A DNA stretch of 41,319 nucleotides from Limnoglobus sp. (GTDB taxonomy: Bacteria > Planctomycetota > Planctomycetia > Gemmatales > Gemmataceae), in NCBI GenBank assembly GCA_041736785.1, contig JBGSSZ010000674.1:1-41319 (forward strand), given 5' to 3'. Positions 13,028-19,906 of this stretch are shown here, in pieces; the first letter of the stretch is position 1, and every line of letters begins with the position of its first letter. The notes under the pieces are model-generated. The model was not told the DNA's origin, did no database searches, and saw nothing but the letters and a program-made list of their open reading frames with translations. The position numbers were made by a program, and so were the translations under genes.

Positions 13028-15907
13028 ATGGATAATGAGACGATCATCGTTCGGGGTGCCCGCGAGCACAATCTCAAGAACATCAATCTCGAACTCCCGC
13101 GGAACAAGCTGATCGTATTCACCGGAGTCAGCGGTTCGGGGAAAAGCTCGCTGGCCTTTGACACGCTCTACGCAGAGGGGCAGCGACGGTACGTCGAAAG
13201 CCTATCGAGCTATGCCCGGCAGTTTCTGGGTCAGCTTCAGAAACCAGACGTCGACTATATCGCCGGGCTTTCACCGGCCATCAGCATTCAGCAGAAGACC
13301 GCAGGTCGCAATCCGCGCAGCACCGTCGGCACGATCACGGAGGTCAGCGACTATCTCCGCGTGCTCTACGCCAGGCTCGGCGAAGGACACTGCCCCAAGT
13401 GCGACCGACCGATCACGGCTCAGAGCCGCGAGCAGATCGTAGGTCGCGTCCTTACACTGCCGGCGGGTTCACGCTTTCTGGTGCTGGCACCGGTCGTTCG
13501 CAGTCAGAAGGGCGAGTTCAAGGACTTCTTCGCGGACCTGATCAAACGCGGGTACGTGCGGGCACGAGTCGATGGTACCGTAGTGCGGATGACCGACGAT
13601 CTCAAGCTCGACAAGAAGATCAAGCACTTCATCGAAGTGGTCGTGGATCGATTGGTGCTGGACAGCACTGACGGCAGCCAGCGGACGCGGATCGCGGAAG
13701 CCGTGGAGCAATCGCTGGCCTTGGCCGACGGCGCGGTCATCATCAGCGTCGAGCAGGCCAAGGACGAGTACTCCGATTTGCTCCTGTCGGCGAAGTACGC
13801 TTGTGCGCATTGCCAGGTCAGTTATGAACCGCCCAGCCCGCAGCTTTTCAGCTTCAACAGCCCGCATGGTATGTGCCCTGAATGCGACGGCCTCGGTACC
13901 AAGTACACGTTTGATCCCGACCTGCTGGTGCCCGATCCGAGCTTGAGCTTTGCAGGCGGAGCCGTTCCGCTGGTGGGGCCATTCAAAGGCATGGGCCGCT
14001 GGCGGAAGCACACCTATGAAGGCGTTGGGAAAAGCCTCGAGATCGATCTGAAGATGCCGTGGAACAAGCTGAGCGAGGAGCACAAAAATCTGCTTCTTCA
14101 CGGCAGCGGGGACCGGCACATCGTCTGGGAGTGGAAGCAGCGAAGCGGGATCTGGAAGCACGGCGGCAAGTGGGAAGGCGTCGTCCCGCAACTGATGTCG
14201 CAGTTCAAGAAGTCAGCAGCCATGCCGCGACGCGTGCAACTCGAAAAGTCGATGAGCGTGATGCAGTGTCCCGGGTGTCATGGCCAGAGGCTGAACCCGC
14301 AGGCGCGGGCGGTGCAGGTTCACGGCAAGACGCTCGTCGAAGTCGGCCGCCTGCCGCTCGGCGATCTCGTGCCGTGGTTCGAGCAGTATGCCAGCAAGCT
14401 GACACCCGTGCAGAAAGTGATCGCGGAAGAACTACTCAAAGAGATCCGTGCCCGACTCGGCTTCCTGCTCAACGTCGGCCTGCATTATCTCAGCCTCGAC
14501 CGTGCAGCACCGACACTCAGCGGCGGGGAAGCTCAGCGGATCCGCCTCGCGGGGCAGATCGGCAGCGGCCTCGTCGGCGTGCTCTACATTCTCGACGAAC
14601 CCAGCATCGGCCTGCACCCGCGCGATAACGCCAAGCTGCTCGAAAGTCTCGAAAACCTCCGTGACATGGGCAACACCGTGCTCGTGGTGGAGCACGACGA
14701 GGAGACGATGGCCGCGGCGGATTATCTCGTCGATTTCGGCCCCGGACCGGGTGTCCGCGGCGGATCGGTCGTCGCGGCAGGCACGCCAGCCGAGGTGATT
14801 CGCAACCCGGCAAGCCTCACCGGTTCGTACATGAGCGGCACGAAGAAGATTGAGATTCCCGCCATGCGACGCAAGGGAAACGGCCACAAGTTGCGAATCG
14901 TCAACGCGACACAGAACAACTTGAAGCACGTCACCGTCGACATCCCGCTCGGCAAGTTTGTCGTCGTCACCGGCGTCAGCGGCTCCGGCAAAAGCTCGCT
15001 CGTCAACGATGTTCTCAAATTCGGTATGCGGAATTCGGAACGCGGAGTCGAGGAGGAAGAAATCGAAGGTTCTGAAATCCGCGTGCCGAATTCAACATTC
15101 CGCAACGGAGAGATCGAAGGCGAGGAGAATATCGACAAGTTGATCGACATCGATCAGACAGCGATCGGCCGCACGCCGCGGTCGAACCCGGCGACATACA
15201 TCAAGCTCTTCGACGAAATCCGCAACCTCTACGCCCAGATGACCGAGGCGAAAACCCGTGGCTACAAGCCGGGGCGTTTCAGCTTCAACACCGGCACTGG
15301 CCGCTGCGAAGCGTGCGAAGGGAACGGCCTCAACAAGCTCGAAATGGATTTCCTCGCCGACGTCTGGGTGACCTGCCCGGTCTGCGACGGGCACCGCTTC
15401 AATCGCGAAACGCTTCAGGTGAAGTATCGCGGGCGGAGCATCCACGACGTGCTGGAGATGGAAGTCGCCGCGGCACTGGAACACTTTGAGCACGTGCCCA
15501 AGATCAGGCAGATGCTGCAGACGCTGCACGATGTCGGCCTCGACTACATCAAGCTCGGGCAACCGTCGCCGACGCTCTCCGGCGGCGAAGCACAGCGCAT
15601 CAAACTCGCCAAGGAACTGGTGCGGCCCGGTACGGGCAAAACTCTCTACATCCTCGATGAGCCGACGACGGGCCTGCATTTCGAAGATGTCCGCAAGCTG
15701 CTCGAAGTGCTGCACGGCTTCGTCGAGAAGGGCAACACTGTGCTGGTGATCGAGCACAATCTCGATGTAATCAAGACCGCCGACTGGCTGATCGACATGG
15801 GCCCCGATGGCGGCAACGGCGGCGGGGAGATCGTTGCTGTCGGTACGCCCGAGCAAGTGGCAAAGTGTGAAGCGTCCCACACCGGCAATGCCCTCCGCGG
15901 CTCGCTG
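13028..15907 (+). other. UvrA module 1 (about 960 aa)
   Basis: It runs from ..[30 protein letters not shown] to ..[22 protein letters not shown]. It includes a UvrB-binding-domain-like segment ([30 protein letters not shown]) and an insertion domain. A Lys/Ala-rich linker ([18 protein letters not shown], 15908-15961) joins it to module 2. Confidence 0.85.
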
Positions 15908-18900: not shown

Positions 18901-19906
18901 GAAGAAAGCCCTGGCGAAGGCCGTGGCCGGCGTGGACATTGCCGACGTAGGTGCGGAGATGAAACTGCCGTGGGAAGCGGATGGCCAGAAATGGCACACG
19001 CAGGATCGCATCACCACGCACGGCCTGCCCTGCAAGTGGGATGGGCAGGCACTGGCCGATCTGGAGGCGGCGATTCACGAACTCGGTCAATTCTCGGAAA
19101 CGAACTGGAATCACCGCAGCGTAGTTGAGATTGCGGCTCTAAAGAAGTCGCATGGCTGGTTTTTGCACGCTGCGACCAGCCACCCGGCGTATCTGAAATT
19201 GATCTTCCGCGTCGGTCGCAACTTCACCAAAGAAGCGACACTCAGCGCCCAATTGAATCTGAAACCGCTCAGCGACACACCCGGGCTCGAAGGCTATTCG
19301 CGCGATCATCGCGTGGAGGTGCAGAATCCGCGTGGGCCGTGGCAGTGGATCGTGATCACGATCACCAAGCGCGAAGAGGTCAACGACGCGAAGTTCCAGT
19401 CATTTTTGAAAGACGCGATTGCGTCGTTTCATGCCCAACTTGGCAAACTGGGCACGGACGTGGGCAATCTGATGCCCTGGAAGATCGACGGCGAAAAGTG
19501 GCACCTGTCCGAGAAAGGCTTCCCGCCGGGCAAGGGCGTCAAATGGGATCGCAGCTTGCTGCCCGCGATGCTGAAGCTCATGGCGAGCGTGGATGCAGAT
19601 CTGGATATCCGCTGGGACAGCCGCGATGCCCTGCTCTTCAAGCTGCCCGGCTGCACCAAAAGCTGGAGCCGCTGGAAGACGAAAGAAGCAAAGGCGCTCG
19701 AGTGCCGGTTTGTGGGCGAACCGGGGCAGTTCAACCTGGCTCGCGTGGAGAAGTTCGGCACGGAGCCTGCGATTGAAGCGGACCGTGGCGAGAATGGCGA
19801 CGTGCTGACGCTGCGATTCACTGCGCTCAGTCAGTTGCACAGTGTGGAACTGACGAAGCTGCTGAAAGAGCATGCTGCCGGGTTTCGACGGCACTTCAAA
19901 AGTTAG
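13028..19906 (+). CDS. uvrA: Giant tandem UvrA-UvrA fusion protein with a novel C-terminal extension (2,292 aa from ATG 13028)
   Basis: Two complete UvrA-like modules lie in one frame. There are four Walker A motifs ([36 protein letters not shown]), four signature motifs (LSGGEAQR / MSGGEAQR) and four Walker B motifs (LYILDEP, LYILDEP, LYVLDEP, LYLLDEP). Every CxxC zinc module is duplicated. Start chosen at [19 protein letters not shown], the canonical UvrA N-terminus. Confidence 0.9.
15031..15093. repeat. 16-nt inverted repeat (15 of 16 match, 31-nt loop) inside UvrA module 1 coding sequence
   Basis: gaattcggaacgcgga (15031-15046) versus the reverse complement of tccgcgtgccgaattc (15078-15093). 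It encodes a divergent, roughly 12-aa-longer replacement of the loop before the conserved IDKLIDIDQ motif ([22 protein letters not shown]). Confidence 0.7.
15962..18862 (+). other. UvrA module 2 (about 967 aa)
   Basis: It runs from [41 protein letters not shown] to ..[24 protein letters not shown]. It also retains a UvrB-binding-like segment ([29 protein letters not shown]). Confidence 0.85.
17786..17864. repeat. Perfect 17-nt inverted repeat (45-nt spacer) forming an in-frame insertion in UvrA module 2
   Basis: aaggaagcaggaagaag (17786-17802) is the exact reverse complement of cttcttcctgcttcctt (17848-17864). An inner 5-bp hairpin ccgaa/ttcgg lies at 17831-17846. The arms are built from GGAAGCAG-like purine-rich units. 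It encodes about 27 extra residues ([27 protein letters not shown]) that are absent at the equivalent site of module 1. Confidence 0.8.
18959..19903 (+). repeat. Protein-level tandem duplication within the C-terminal extension (repeat A 18959-19468, repeat B 19469-19903)
   Basis: Repeat A begins [40 protein letters not shown]. Repeat B begins [40 protein letters not shown]. Both end in ..(I/L)T(I/L)..F-type strands followed by an amphipathic helix ([12 protein letters not shown] / [12 protein letters not shown]). Confidence 0.7.

What the first reader, a model, noticed from the sequence alone, without database searches (positions are those of the whole stretch)
13028..19906. Single-chain tandem UvrA-UvrA fusion (covalent pseudo-dimer) of 2,292 aa
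Two full-length UvrA modules sit in one ORF, joined by an 18-aa Lys/Ala-rich linker ([18 protein letters not shown]). All four ABC ATPase sites look intact: 4 Walker A, 4 LSGGEAQR-type signatures and 4 Walker B. All CxxC zinc modules are duplicated. Both modules keep the segment corresponding to the UvrB-binding domain, so neither half is a class-II (UvrA2/DrrC-like) truncation. Canonical UvrA works as a homodimer of roughly 940-aa protomers. Fusing two diverged protomers would fix the stoichiometry and allow the two halves to specialise asymmetrically. I vaguely recall that duplicated UvrA paralogues are mentioned in surveys of UvrA classes, but I cannot verify that here. I do not recognise this particular three-part architecture.
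Basis: partly seen in the sequence, partly recalled or inferred. Interest (0 to 1): 0.8.

Follow-up and report, generated by a model that had tools for sequence, protein, structure and literature searches.

The report
Fused double UvrA repair protein
This gene encodes the DNA-damage sensor UvrA with its two normally separate dimer partners fused into one 2,292-residue chain plus an extra duplicated tail; the fusion is real, but it is already annotated and reported for planctomycete bacteria and is widespread elsewhere, so it is an unstudied natural variant, not a discovery.

Summary
Window 13028-19906 (+) is one uninterrupted 2,292-aa ORF. It has two complete class I UvrA modules (aa 1-960 and 979-1947, 49% identical), an 18-aa basic linker and a 345-aa tail. 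All four ATPase sites and all 24 zinc cysteines are intact and invariant in 120 homologues. About 42 independent genome assemblies show the same single ORF, so the junction is not an artefact.

The novelty claim does not hold. Gemmataceae proteins of 2,276-2,421 aa with this architecture are already annotated as UvrA. Seeger et al. [quoted passage not shown] Of the 150 best 50%-identity cluster representatives, 117 are complete tandems, from Chlamydiales, Chloroflexota, Fibrobacterales, Myxococcota, Spirochaetota and Heimdallarchaeota.

Three things seem undescribed:
- The tail is an internal duplication of a ~150-170-aa domain with no Pfam, NCBIfam or fold match. It was found only in Gemmatales-type genomes.
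- Module 2 has a fixed loss of two arginines in the signature-II motif ([11 protein letters not shown] becomes [11 protein letters not shown]).
- Across tandem families, domain loss falls mostly on the C-terminal module.

The most likely function is the housekeeping excision-repair damage sensor, working as a covalent pseudo-dimer. This is inferred, not shown.

The parts
13028..19906 (+). Complete CDS of the tandem UvrA (2,292 aa plus stop)
   Evidence: The start is shared by 104 of 120 homologues. Gemmataceae UvrA proteins match at 65-78% identity, nearly all over 100% of the length.
13028..15907 (+). UvrA module 1 (aa 1-960): NBD-I, UvrB-binding domain, insertion domain, NBD-II and three zinc modules
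   Evidence: NF001503 scores 1374 bits against a cut-off of 1147. It matches PDB UvrA chain 9gxk at 1109 bits, end to end. None of 125 highly conserved canonical positions is changed.
13913..14245 (+). Insertion (DNA-binding) domain of module 1, aa 296-406
   Evidence: Best stretch of Pfam PF17755 UvrA_DNA-bind; two stretches in the whole protein.
15167..15199 (+). Signature-II motif [11 protein letters not shown] of module 1 (aa 714-724), canonical form
   Evidence: R715 and R718 are invariant in 120 of 120 homologues. R715 aligns to Bst UvrA residue 691 (2r6f chain position 711 minus a 20-residue tag).
15908..15961 (+). Inter-module linker [18 protein letters not shown] (aa 961-978)
   Evidence: Mean column identity is 0.23 against 0.82-0.83 for the modules. 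The aligned junction region varies by 14 residues in length across the family (window linker 18 aa) and is rich in K, R, P and A; median pI is about 10.8. The comparable spacer in 142 tandem UvrAs has a median of 36 aa; in the window it is 35.
15962..18868 (+). UvrA module 2 (aa 979-1947): same full domain set as module 1
   Evidence: NF001503 scores 1289 bits. It matches 9gxk at 1051 bits in two stretches separated by a ~28-aa insertion. It is 49% identical to module 1. All motifs are invariant.
16355..16678 (+). UvrB-binding domain of module 2, aa 1110-1217
   Evidence: Best stretch of Pfam PF17760 UvrA_inter, profile positions 1-108 of 109; two stretches in the protein.
18116..18148 (+). 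Altered signature-II motif [11 protein letters not shown] of module 2 (aa 1697-1707)
   Evidence: N1698 is found in 119 of 120 homologues and S1701 in 118 of 120. This is the only fixed departure from 125 positions that are at least 90% conserved in 79 canonical-like modules.
18869..19903 (+). C-terminal tail (aa 1948-2292), found only in Gemmatales-type genomes, with no known family
   Evidence: No Pfam, NCBIfam, PHROG or PADLOC match. Mean column identity in the family is 0.65. Relatives occur in 192 GTDB species genomes; every informative organism name among the 80 listed is Gemmatales. AlphaFold2 mean pLDDT is 88.8.
18950..19462 (+). Tail repeat 1 (aa 1975-2145), starting with the motif PWxxDGxxWH
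   Evidence: hhalign of repeat 1 against repeat 2 gives probability 96.7% and E 4.7e-10 over 144 columns. The single-repeat model (nt 18950-19477) has pLDDT 91.6 and pTM 0.86. No PDB match has E below 0.04.
19463..19903 (+). Tail repeat 2 (aa 2146-2292), basic
   Evidence: The PWKxxGxxWH motif is repeated. Median pI in the family is 9.6, against 7.3 for repeat 1.

Best explanation
This is the nucleotide-excision-repair damage sensor UvrA of a Gemmatales planctomycete, encoded as a covalent pseudo-dimer.

Shown:
- Two complete class I UvrA modules lie in one chain, giving four ABC ATPase sites, six zinc modules, two UvrB-binding domains and two insertion domains.
- They are joined by a short, basic, fast-evolving and presumably flexible linker.
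- Every catalytic and zinc-ligand residue is under strong purifying selection in both modules.

Inferred:
- The two modules fold back on each other to form the same head-to-head DNA-clamping assembly as the canonical UvrA2 homodimer.
- This assembly scans DNA, loads UvrB through one or both UvrB-binding domains, and hands the lesion over.
- The tether fixes a 1:1 stoichiometry at any concentration. Its length (about 35 residues between the structured ends) would still let the interface hinge open, as it does when the second UvrB binds in the canonical system.
- Module 1 is fully canonical. Module 2 has lost two conserved arginines in the signature-II motif. The two DNA- and UvrB-facing sides are therefore no longer equivalent, which may hard-wire a division of labour that the homodimer adopts only transiently ('recognition' versus 'support' protomer).
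- The C-terminal tail, itself a two-fold repeat of a new alpha+beta domain whose second copy is basic, is an accessory DNA-binding or partner-binding module specific to Gemmatales. Its role is unknown.
For: - The ORF is intact and its motifs are mapped.
- Pfam finds two UvrA_inter and two UvrA_DNA-bind stretches.
- Each module alone passes the NCBIfam UvrA equivalog cut-off and aligns end to end with solved UvrA structures.
- In 120 homologues all four Walker A and B motifs, signatures and H-loops are invariant or nearly so, as are the 24 zinc cysteines (one cysteine position is D in 9 of 120). Modules 1 and 2 are equally conserved (0.83 and 0.82), while the linker is not (0.23).
- The single ORF is reproduced in 42 independent genome assemblies.
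- Spacer length is constrained to 26-57 aa (5th-95th percentile) in 142 tandem UvrAs of very different lineages, which fits a shared geometric requirement.
- The genomic context is ordinary chromosomal housekeeping, with no defence or biosynthetic cluster.
- The literature calls the fused protein 'the UvrA protein' of Planctomycetes. It reports all four UvrABCD subunits detected by proteomics in Tuwongella immobilis, a Gemmataceae species (PMC8567305).
- In the canonical dimer the two insertion domains already behave asymmetrically, and the dimer interface shrinks by 60% when the second UvrB binds (PMC11985968).
- The fixed asymmetry in the signature-II motif is documented.
Against: - No structural or biochemical evidence shows that the two modules pair within one chain rather than between chains. 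The protein exceeds the 1,200-aa limit of the structure tool.
- I could not check whether the same genome also carries a canonical ~950-aa uvrA, or uvrB and uvrC.
- The DNA-binding role of the lost arginine (Bst R691) rests on my memory of Croteau et al. 2008. I could not verify it in the paper library.
- The tail has no informative fold match.
- In T. immobilis the UvrABCD proteins fractionate with the SDS-soluble fraction, unlike in E. coli, and this is unexplained.
Confidence: 0.68

Rival explanations
1. Assembly or annotation artefact: two adjacent uvrA genes wrongly joined by a missed stop codon or frameshift near 15900-15970.
For: None found. Some related loci do show interrupted ORFs (several from one 'MFD' MAG series, and the fragmented L001), but I attribute these to assembly errors and did not verify that.
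Against: The frame is open throughout. More than 120 database clusters of 2,276-2,421 aa match, nearly all over 100% of the length; they include proteins on multi-megabase contigs of Limnoglobus roseus (9.38 Mb) and Fimbriiglobus ruber (1.57 Mb). Forty-two independent assemblies carry the same single ORF. The literature describes the gene as a fusion.
Confidence: 0.01
2. A non-NER UvrA paralogue, such as a class II-like drug-resistance or DNA-clearing ATPase (UvrA2, DrrC, Ecm16) or a UvrA-like component of a defence system (MADS mad3). On this reading the true NER UvrA is a separate canonical gene elsewhere in the genome.
For: PADLOC mad3 and mad8 models hit the NBDs strongly (604 and 226 bits). 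I could not check for a second uvrA in the genome. The tail is an unusual addition.
Against: Both modules keep the UvrB-binding domain and zinc module 1, which class II proteins lack (class definition in PMC9328131). Both pass the class I equivalog threshold. None (module 1) or one (module 2) of 125 canonical conserved positions is changed. The neighbours are housekeeping genes, with no methyltransferase, defence or biosynthetic genes. The literature treats this protein as the UvrA of Planctomycetes. The mad3 hit covers only ABC-domain homology.
Confidence: 0.1
3. A functional NER UvrA in which the modules do not pair within the chain. Two chains would associate instead (module 1 with module 1', or 1 with 2'), giving an assembly with eight NBDs or open-ended oligomers on DNA. 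The tail could mediate that association.
For: Nothing here distinguishes intra-chain from inter-chain pairing. The tail is a two-fold repeat that could be an oligomerisation or scaffold module. The UvrABCD proteins of T. immobilis behave as insoluble or complex-bound in fractionation.
Against: The spacer is short and its length is constrained across unrelated tandem families. In other families the C module repeatedly loses one insertion domain or one UvrB-binding domain (UI+Ui in 44 clusters). Both facts are most simply explained if N and C modules are obligate partners of each other within one chain.
Confidence: 0.2

Closest known systems
Tandem (fused) UvrA of Planctomycetes, as noted by Seeger et al. 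2021 (Front Microbiol, PMC8567305) and annotated in RefSeq/GenBank for Gemmata, Fimbriiglobus, Limnoglobus and Urbifossiella
   Same: Same family: 65-78% identity, nearly all over 100% of the length, at 2,276-2,421 aa. Same two-module fusion. The tail is present in every Gemmatales locus examined.
   Different: Nothing architectural. The window protein is simply another member; its nearest relative is 78% identical. The paper gives one sentence and a figure. The text I could read does not mention the C-terminal tail, the linker or any module asymmetry.
Canonical class I UvrA homodimer (E. coli, Geobacillus stearothermophilus 2r6f/3uwx, Thermotoga maritima 3pih, Mycobacterium tuberculosis 3zqj/9ga2-5)
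   Same: Each module has the complete domain set and aligns end to end with solved structures. All ATPase and zinc motifs are present.
   Different: Two protomers are joined covalently by an 18-aa linker. Module 2 carries [11 protein letters not shown] in place of [11 protein letters not shown]. A 345-aa duplicated tail is added. The chain is 2,292 aa rather than about 940-970.
Chlamydial long UvrA (NCBIfam NF001885 / PRK00635, profile of 1,809 positions) and other tandem UvrAs of 1,750-1,960 aa (Chlamydiales, Chloroflexota, Fibrobacterales, other Planctomycetota, Heimdallarchaeota)
   Same: Two UvrA modules in one chain, with a spacer of similar length.
   Different: The window protein scores 1385 bits against the NF001885 cut-off of 3054. 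Both of its modules best match the N-terminal half of that profile. Most other tandems have a diverged C module, often lacking the insertion domain, and none has the tail. A shared origin is not resolved: the neighbour-joining bootstrap is 32.
Class II UvrA (Deinococcus UvrA2 2vf7, DrrC, Ecm16 7sh1) and their tandem forms (1,567-1,744 aa; Polyangia, Acanthopleuribacter)
   Same: Same ABC-ATPase core and DNA-binding machinery.
   Different: Class II proteins lack the UvrB-binding domain and zinc module 1. Both modules here keep them.

Membership tests
Class I UvrA (NCBIfam NF001503 / TIGR00630) | Two ABC nucleotide-binding domains per protomer, each with Walker A, Walker B, signature and H-loop | tested here: met
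   Met twice over: four complete sites, with motif residues invariant or nearly so in 120 homologues.
Class I UvrA (NCBIfam NF001503 / TIGR00630) | Three zinc modules (12 Cys as six CxxC pairs) per protomer | tested here: met
   Six CxxC pairs in each module. All 24 Cys are conserved; one position is D in 9 of 120 homologues.
Class I UvrA (NCBIfam NF001503 / TIGR00630) | UvrB-binding domain (PF17760) and insertion domain (PF17755) | tested here: met
   Two stretches of each Pfam family. Conservation is similar in both modules.
Class I UvrA (NCBIfam NF001503 / TIGR00630) | Score above the curated equivalog cut-off (1147 bits) | tested here: met
   Module 1 scores 1374 bits and module 2 scores 1289 bits when scanned separately.
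Class I UvrA (NCBIfam NF001503 / TIGR00630) | Protomer of about 940-1,000 aa that forms a non-covalent homodimer | tested here: not met
   One chain of 2,292 aa holds both modules. It is a fused variant of the family, not the canonical form.
Class I UvrA (NCBIfam NF001503 / TIGR00630) | Loads UvrB and supports UvrBC incision of damaged DNA | not testable with these tools
   This needs biochemistry or genetics. uvrB and uvrC are not in the window.
Planctomycete tandem UvrA (Seeger et al. 2021; Gemmataceae 'excinuclease ABC subunit UvrA' of ~2,300 aa) | Two uvrA units fused in one gene, about twice canonical length, in Planctomycetes | tested here: met
   Named Gemmataceae proteins match at 65-78% identity, nearly all over full length.
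Planctomycete tandem UvrA (Seeger et al. 2021; Gemmataceae 'excinuclease ABC subunit UvrA' of ~2,300 aa) | C-terminal duplicated tail of ~345 aa (my addition, not part of the published description) | tested here: met
   The tail is present here, and relatives occur in 192 GTDB species genomes; all informative names among the 80 listed are Gemmatales. In 42 of those loci it is contiguous with the two modules.
Chlamydial long UvrA (NCBIfam NF001885 / PRK00635) | Score above the curated cut-off (3054 bits) across the 1,809-position profile | tested here: not met
   1385 bits. Both modules align to profile positions 5-916 only.
Class II UvrA (UvrA2 / DrrC / Ecm16) | Absence of the UvrB-binding domain and of zinc module 1 | tested here: not met
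   Both modules have PF17760 and the flanking CxxC pairs. The class definition is taken from PMC9328131.
MADS defence system, component mad3 (PADLOC) | UvrA-like ATPase encoded within a multi-gene methylation-associated defence locus | tested here: not met
   The sequence hit (604 bits) covers only the ABC domains. The neighbours are an ECF sigma factor, a VIT-VWA protein, pyruvate carboxylase and AccA, with no defence genes.

The most novel reading that the evidence does not exclude
Gemmatales UvrA is a naturally asymmetric single-chain damage sensor. Module 1, with its canonical [11 protein letters not shown] motif, would be the fixed lesion-recognition protomer. Module 2 has lost the two arginines and carries the tail, so it would be the fixed support or UvrB-loading protomer. 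The duplicated tail would be a new DNA-binding or partner-binding domain that replaces the contacts lost on that side or couples repair to the condensed planctomycete nucleoid. Because the protomers cannot dissociate, the protein would also show that full disassembly of the UvrA dimer is not needed for lesion hand-off to UvrB.
Probability: 0.25. Interest if true: 0.6.

Novelty: already known. Interest (0 to 1): 0.35.

Why it matters
The tandem fusion is not a discovery, but it is an unexploited resource. Two questions about UvrA remain open (see PMC11985968):
- How does a symmetric UvrA2(UvrB2) complex become an asymmetric pre-incision complex?
- Must the UvrA dimer come apart to release DNA to UvrB?

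In a homodimer one cannot mutate just one protomer. A natural single-chain UvrA in which all four ATPase sites, both UvrB-binding domains and both insertion domains can be altered separately makes such experiments direct.

The survey done here adds a natural experiment. Across more than 100 diverged tandem families the C-terminal module repeatedly loses its insertion domain or its signature-II arginines. That suggests one copy of these elements is enough.

The Gemmatales-specific duplicated tail is a well-folded, conserved domain with no known relatives. It is attached to a core repair enzyme and may be worth a structural and biochemical look.

Tried and rejected
- Artefact. I tested for a missed stop or frameshift with 120 homologues and 80 genomic loci and rejected it.
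- Stand-alone tail proteins. Short 'tail-only' database hits looked like independent genes. Most sit on contigs of only 1-5 kb, and the one checked on a long contig (P0198) was a piece of a frameshift-fragmented gene in a noisy long-read assembly.
- Tail identity. Pfam at E up to 10, NCBIfam, PHROGs and PADLOC found nothing. Foldseek of the two-domain model against PDB and BFVD, and of one repeat against PDB, gave no convincing match. The best were the T4 MotA C-terminal domain, type III secretion chaperones and LAGLIDADG domains, with TM at most 0.56 and E at least about 1e-3. One uncharacterised archaeal-virus protein scored E 9e-5 but TM only 0.2. I do not assign a fold family.
- Shared origin with the chlamydial fusion. 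Profile-half matching and a neighbour-joining tree of 240 modules with 100 bootstraps left deep nodes unresolved. The Gemmatales N and C modules each form 100%-supported clades, but their grouping together has a bootstrap of only 32.
- Literature on UvrA classes. Marszalkowska et al. 2013 ('A new division of bacterial UvrA homologues') is not in the library. Searches for R691 and K680 found nothing relevant.
- Supplements of Seeger et al. They held no uvrA entries.
- SOS-type regulation. No inverted repeat, sigma-70-like promoter or terminator was found in 12700-13100.
- Defence-system reading. The PADLOC mad3 hit was rejected on genomic context and on class I features.

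
Full report
THE OBSERVATION. The frame from 12938 to 19906 on the + strand is open throughout. The ATG at 13028 gives 2,292 residues starting [10 protein letters not shown], and 104 of 120 homologues start at the same alignment column. The protein has four parts:
- module 1, aa 1-960 (nt 13028-15907);
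- the linker [18 protein letters not shown], aa 961-978 (nt 15908-15961);
- module 2, aa 979-1947 (nt 15962-18868);
- a C-terminal tail, aa 1948-2292 (nt 18869-19903).

Walker A lies at aa 33, 649, 1011 and 1644. The signature is LSGGEAQR at 497, 850 and 1465 and MSGGEAQR at 1833. There are four Walker B motifs and twelve CxxC pairs, six per module. Pfam finds two UvrB-binding domains (PF17760) and two insertion/DNA-binding domains (PF17755). The two modules are 49% identical over their full length. Scanned separately, each exceeds the NCBIfam class I UvrA equivalog cut-off of 1147 bits (1374 and 1289 bits). Each aligns end to end with solved UvrA structures.

IS THE JUNCTION REAL? Yes. The protein search returned more than 120 clusters of 2,276-2,421 aa. 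Nearly all cover 100% of the query, at 65-78% identity. They include proteins on multi-megabase contigs of Limnoglobus roseus (9.38 Mb) and Fimbriiglobus ruber (1.57 Mb), and Gemmata and Urbifossiella proteins, all named 'excinuclease ABC subunit UvrA'. Among 80 loci fetched from different GTDB species genomes, 42 carry a single frame of 2,290-2,480 codons with four Walker A motifs. The shorter ones are either cut by contig ends or interrupted inside the contig; several of the latter come from one 'MFD' MAG series, where I suspect assembly frameshifts but did not check each case.

IS IT NEW? No. Seeger et al. [quoted passage not shown] They report all four UvrABCD subunits in the proteome of Tuwongella immobilis, a Gemmataceae species. 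NCBIfam holds a curated 1,809-position model for the chlamydial long UvrA (NF001885). The window protein hits it below its cut-off, at 1385 bits against 3054.

An exhaustive phmmer search with module 1 against 1.84 billion cluster representatives shows how common the architecture is. That search ranks two-module proteins first, because their two hits add up. Of the best 150 representatives (50%-identity clusters), 117 are complete tandems:
- 28 clusters have two full modules;
- 44 have a C module without the insertion domain;
- 29 have both modules without the UvrB-binding domain (class II tandems);
- the rest are rarer combinations.

Where sources give names, they are Chloroflexota, Chlamydiales, Planctomycetota, Fibrobacterales, Spirochaetota, Polyangia, Deltaproteobacteria, Acanthopleuribacter pedis and Heimdallarchaeota. 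Only the two Gemmatales-type representatives (P0241, P0242) have a C-terminal extension longer than 60 aa.

SELECTION ON THE TWO HALVES. I aligned the 120 full-length homologues. Mean column identity is 0.83 for module 1, 0.82 for module 2, 0.23 for the linker and 0.65 for the tail. Walker A and B motifs, signatures and H-loops are invariant or nearly so, and all 24 zinc cysteines are conserved, with one position being D in 9 sequences. Neither module is decaying.

I then took 125 positions that are at least 90% conserved in 79 canonical-like modules from other lineages. Module 1 has no fixed change. Module 2 has exactly one, and it lies in the signature-II motif. [11 protein letters not shown] in module 1 (R715 and R718 in 120 of 120) becomes [11 protein letters not shown] in module 2 (N1698 in 119 of 120, S1701 in 118 of 120). 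R715 aligns with residue 691 of G. stearothermophilus UvrA: chain position 711 in 2r6f, minus a 20-residue tag. From memory, R691 is one of the residues whose mutation impairs DNA binding (Croteau et al. 2008), but I could not verify this in the library. The same relaxation recurs in other tandem families. The R718-equivalent is Arg in 114 of 118 N modules but in only 71 of 118 C modules.

THE LINKER. It varies in sequence, and the aligned junction region varies by 14 residues in length across the family (the window linker is 18 aa). It is rich in K, R, P and A and has a median pI of about 10.8. Measured between equivalent structured positions, the spacer in 142 tandem UvrAs of all kinds has a median of 36 aa (5th-95th percentile 26-57). 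The window value is 35. A length constraint shared by very different families fits a common geometric need, namely bridging the C-terminus of one module to the N-terminus of its partner. This is inference. I could not measure the distance in a solved dimer or fold the whole chain.

THE TAIL. It has no match in Pfam, NCBIfam, PHROGs or PADLOC. Relatives occur in 192 GTDB species genomes. Among the 80 listed, every informative organism name belongs to Gemmatales: Fimbriiglobus, Limnoglobus, Urbifossiella, Gemmata, Zavarzinella and Frigoriglobus. Several records are only generically labelled, and some carry implausible 'uncultured Alcaligenaceae' titles. Apparent stand-alone tail proteins mostly sit on contigs of 1-5 kb, and the one checked on a long contig was a piece of a frameshift-fragmented gene.

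The tail is an internal duplication. Repeats 1 and 2 align with hhalign probability 96.7% and E 4.7e-10 over 144 columns. Both begin with a P-W-x2-[DN]-G-x2-W-H motif. AlphaFold2 models are confident: pLDDT 88.8 for the whole tail, and 91.6 with pTM 0.86 for repeat 1. Each repeat has an alpha-beta3-alpha-beta2-alpha arrangement. Foldseek gives no convincing match in PDB or BFVD. The nearest shapes are the T4 MotA C-terminal DNA-binding domain, type III secretion chaperones and LAGLIDADG domains, all with TM at most 0.56. Repeat 2 is basic (median pI 9.6) and repeat 1 is neutral. A role in binding DNA or a partner protein is a reasonable guess, not a finding.

CONTEXT. The neighbours are a divergent ECF sigma factor (12259-12858, -), a 404-aa ORF without domains, a VIT-VWA protein, an 832-aa convergent ORF without domains, pyruvate carboxylase and AccA. 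No uvrB, uvrC or second uvrA lies in the window. The sigma factor, the 404-aa ORF and the 832-aa ORF are syntenic with the tandem uvrA in 37, 30 and 28 of the fetched loci. No inverted repeat or consensus promoter was found upstream.

ORIGIN. A neighbour-joining tree of 240 modules (610 trimmed columns, 100 bootstraps) gives 100% support to a Gemmatales N-module clade and to a Gemmatales C-module clade. The grouping of those two clades with each other, with one other tandem family (P0245) and with stand-alone UvrAs has only 32% support. Other tandems form large matching all-N and all-C clades of 43 members each, with the same parent proteins in both. This indicates old fusions followed by co-divergence. 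Both Gemmatales modules best match the N-terminal half of the chlamydial profile. Whether the Gemmatales fusion is independent of the chlamydial one is unresolved.

MECHANISM. The best-supported reading (confidence about 0.68) is that this is the housekeeping NER damage sensor working as a covalent pseudo-dimer. The complete, equally conserved double domain set and the flexible linker are shown. The intra-chain pairing, UvrB loading and lesion hand-off are inferred. Recent cryo-EM work on the canonical dimer is relevant (PMC11985968). It shows that the two insertion domains take different roles on damaged DNA ('recognition-ID' and 'support-ID'). It also shows that a UvrA2UvrB1 intermediate exists, and that the dimer interface shrinks by 60% when the second UvrB binds. 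A tethered dimer could still hinge open but could not dissociate. Its two sides can also diverge, as the signature-II change here and the domain losses in other tandem families show.

Rival readings:
- a non-NER paralogue (0.1), disfavoured by the class I features, the context and the literature;
- inter-chain pairing of modules (0.2), not excluded;
- an artefact (0.01), refuted.

VERDICT. The structural interpretation is reasonable but untested. The novelty is low, because the architecture is annotated, published in one line and widespread. Three things appear undescribed in what I could search: the Gemmatales-specific duplicated tail, the fixed signature-II asymmetry, and the bias of domain loss towards the C module across tandem families. 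These give the case moderate interest as a natural tool for dissecting UvrA asymmetry.

Noticed in passing
P0252 and its cluster; not in the window: A complete tandem UvrA of 1,916 aa (two full modules) is encoded in several Candidatus Heimdallarchaeota/Heimdallarchaeaceae MAGs (Asgard archaea). It sits in a 29-member cluster that includes contigs up to 192 kb.
   Followed up: partly
P0297-P0390 group, for example P0340 of Acanthopleuribacter pedis, P0339 of Polyangia and P0309 of Deltaproteobacteria: Twenty-nine 50%-identity clusters of 1,567-1,744 aa are tandems in which both modules lack the UvrB-binding domain. These are fused class II UvrAs, and one comes from a cultured isolate.
   Followed up: partly
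Top 150 representatives, classified: Domain loss in tandem UvrAs is strongly one-sided. The insertion domain is missing from the C module only in 47 clusters (44 UI+Ui and 3 UI+ui) but from the N module only in 5 (4 Ui+UI and 1 Ui+uI). The UvrB-binding domain is missing from the C module only in 9 clusters (5 UI+uI, 3 UI+ui and 1 Ui+uI) against 1 for the N module only.
   Followed up: partly
window 12259-12858 (-) and 11051-12265 (-): An ECF sigma factor is transcribed divergently, 169 bp upstream of the tandem uvrA. It is followed by a 404-aa ORF with no Pfam domain that overlaps it by 7 nt and might be an anti-sigma factor. Both are syntenic with the uvrA gene, in 37 and 30 of the related loci. 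A role in regulating uvrA was not tested.
   Followed up: partly
window 19903-22401 (-): A convergent 832-aa ORF with no Pfam match overlaps the uvrA stop codon by 4 nt. It is conserved downstream of the tandem uvrA in 28 related loci at 40-50% identity.
   Followed up: partly
window aa 1011-1018 (nt 16058-16081): Walker A of NBD-I in module 2 reads GPSGSGKS, with the Pro invariant in 120 of 120 homologues. Module 1 reads GVSGSGKS, and the one solved UvrA shown in the alignments reads GLSGSGKS at this position. This is a second small, fixed difference between the modules.
   Followed up: no
window aa 665-700 (nt 15020-15127) and aa 1583-1612 (nt 17774-17863): Each module has its own insertion relative to solved UvrA structures: an acidic stretch after Walker A of NBD-II in module 1, and a basic ~28-aa stretch between NBD-I and NBD-II in module 2. 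Both are less conserved than their surroundings (0.54-0.68).
   Followed up: no
full protein against PADLOC: The MADS defence components mad3 (604 bits) and mad8 (226 bits) match the UvrA nucleotide-binding domains. Some defence-system ATPases are therefore UvrA-like. There is no defence context here.
   Followed up: partly
L010, L011, L015, L030, L044 and L070: Several MAG records that carry this Gemmatales-type tandem uvrA are titled 'uncultured Alcaligenaceae bacterium'. The organism label on these records looks wrong.
   Followed up: no
L001; L046, L059, L060 and L065: In these long-contig assemblies the tandem uvrA is split into several shorter ORFs. This produces spurious short 'excinuclease ABC subunit A' or tail-only proteins in the databases. 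I suspect assembly frameshifts but did not verify the cause.
   Followed up: partly
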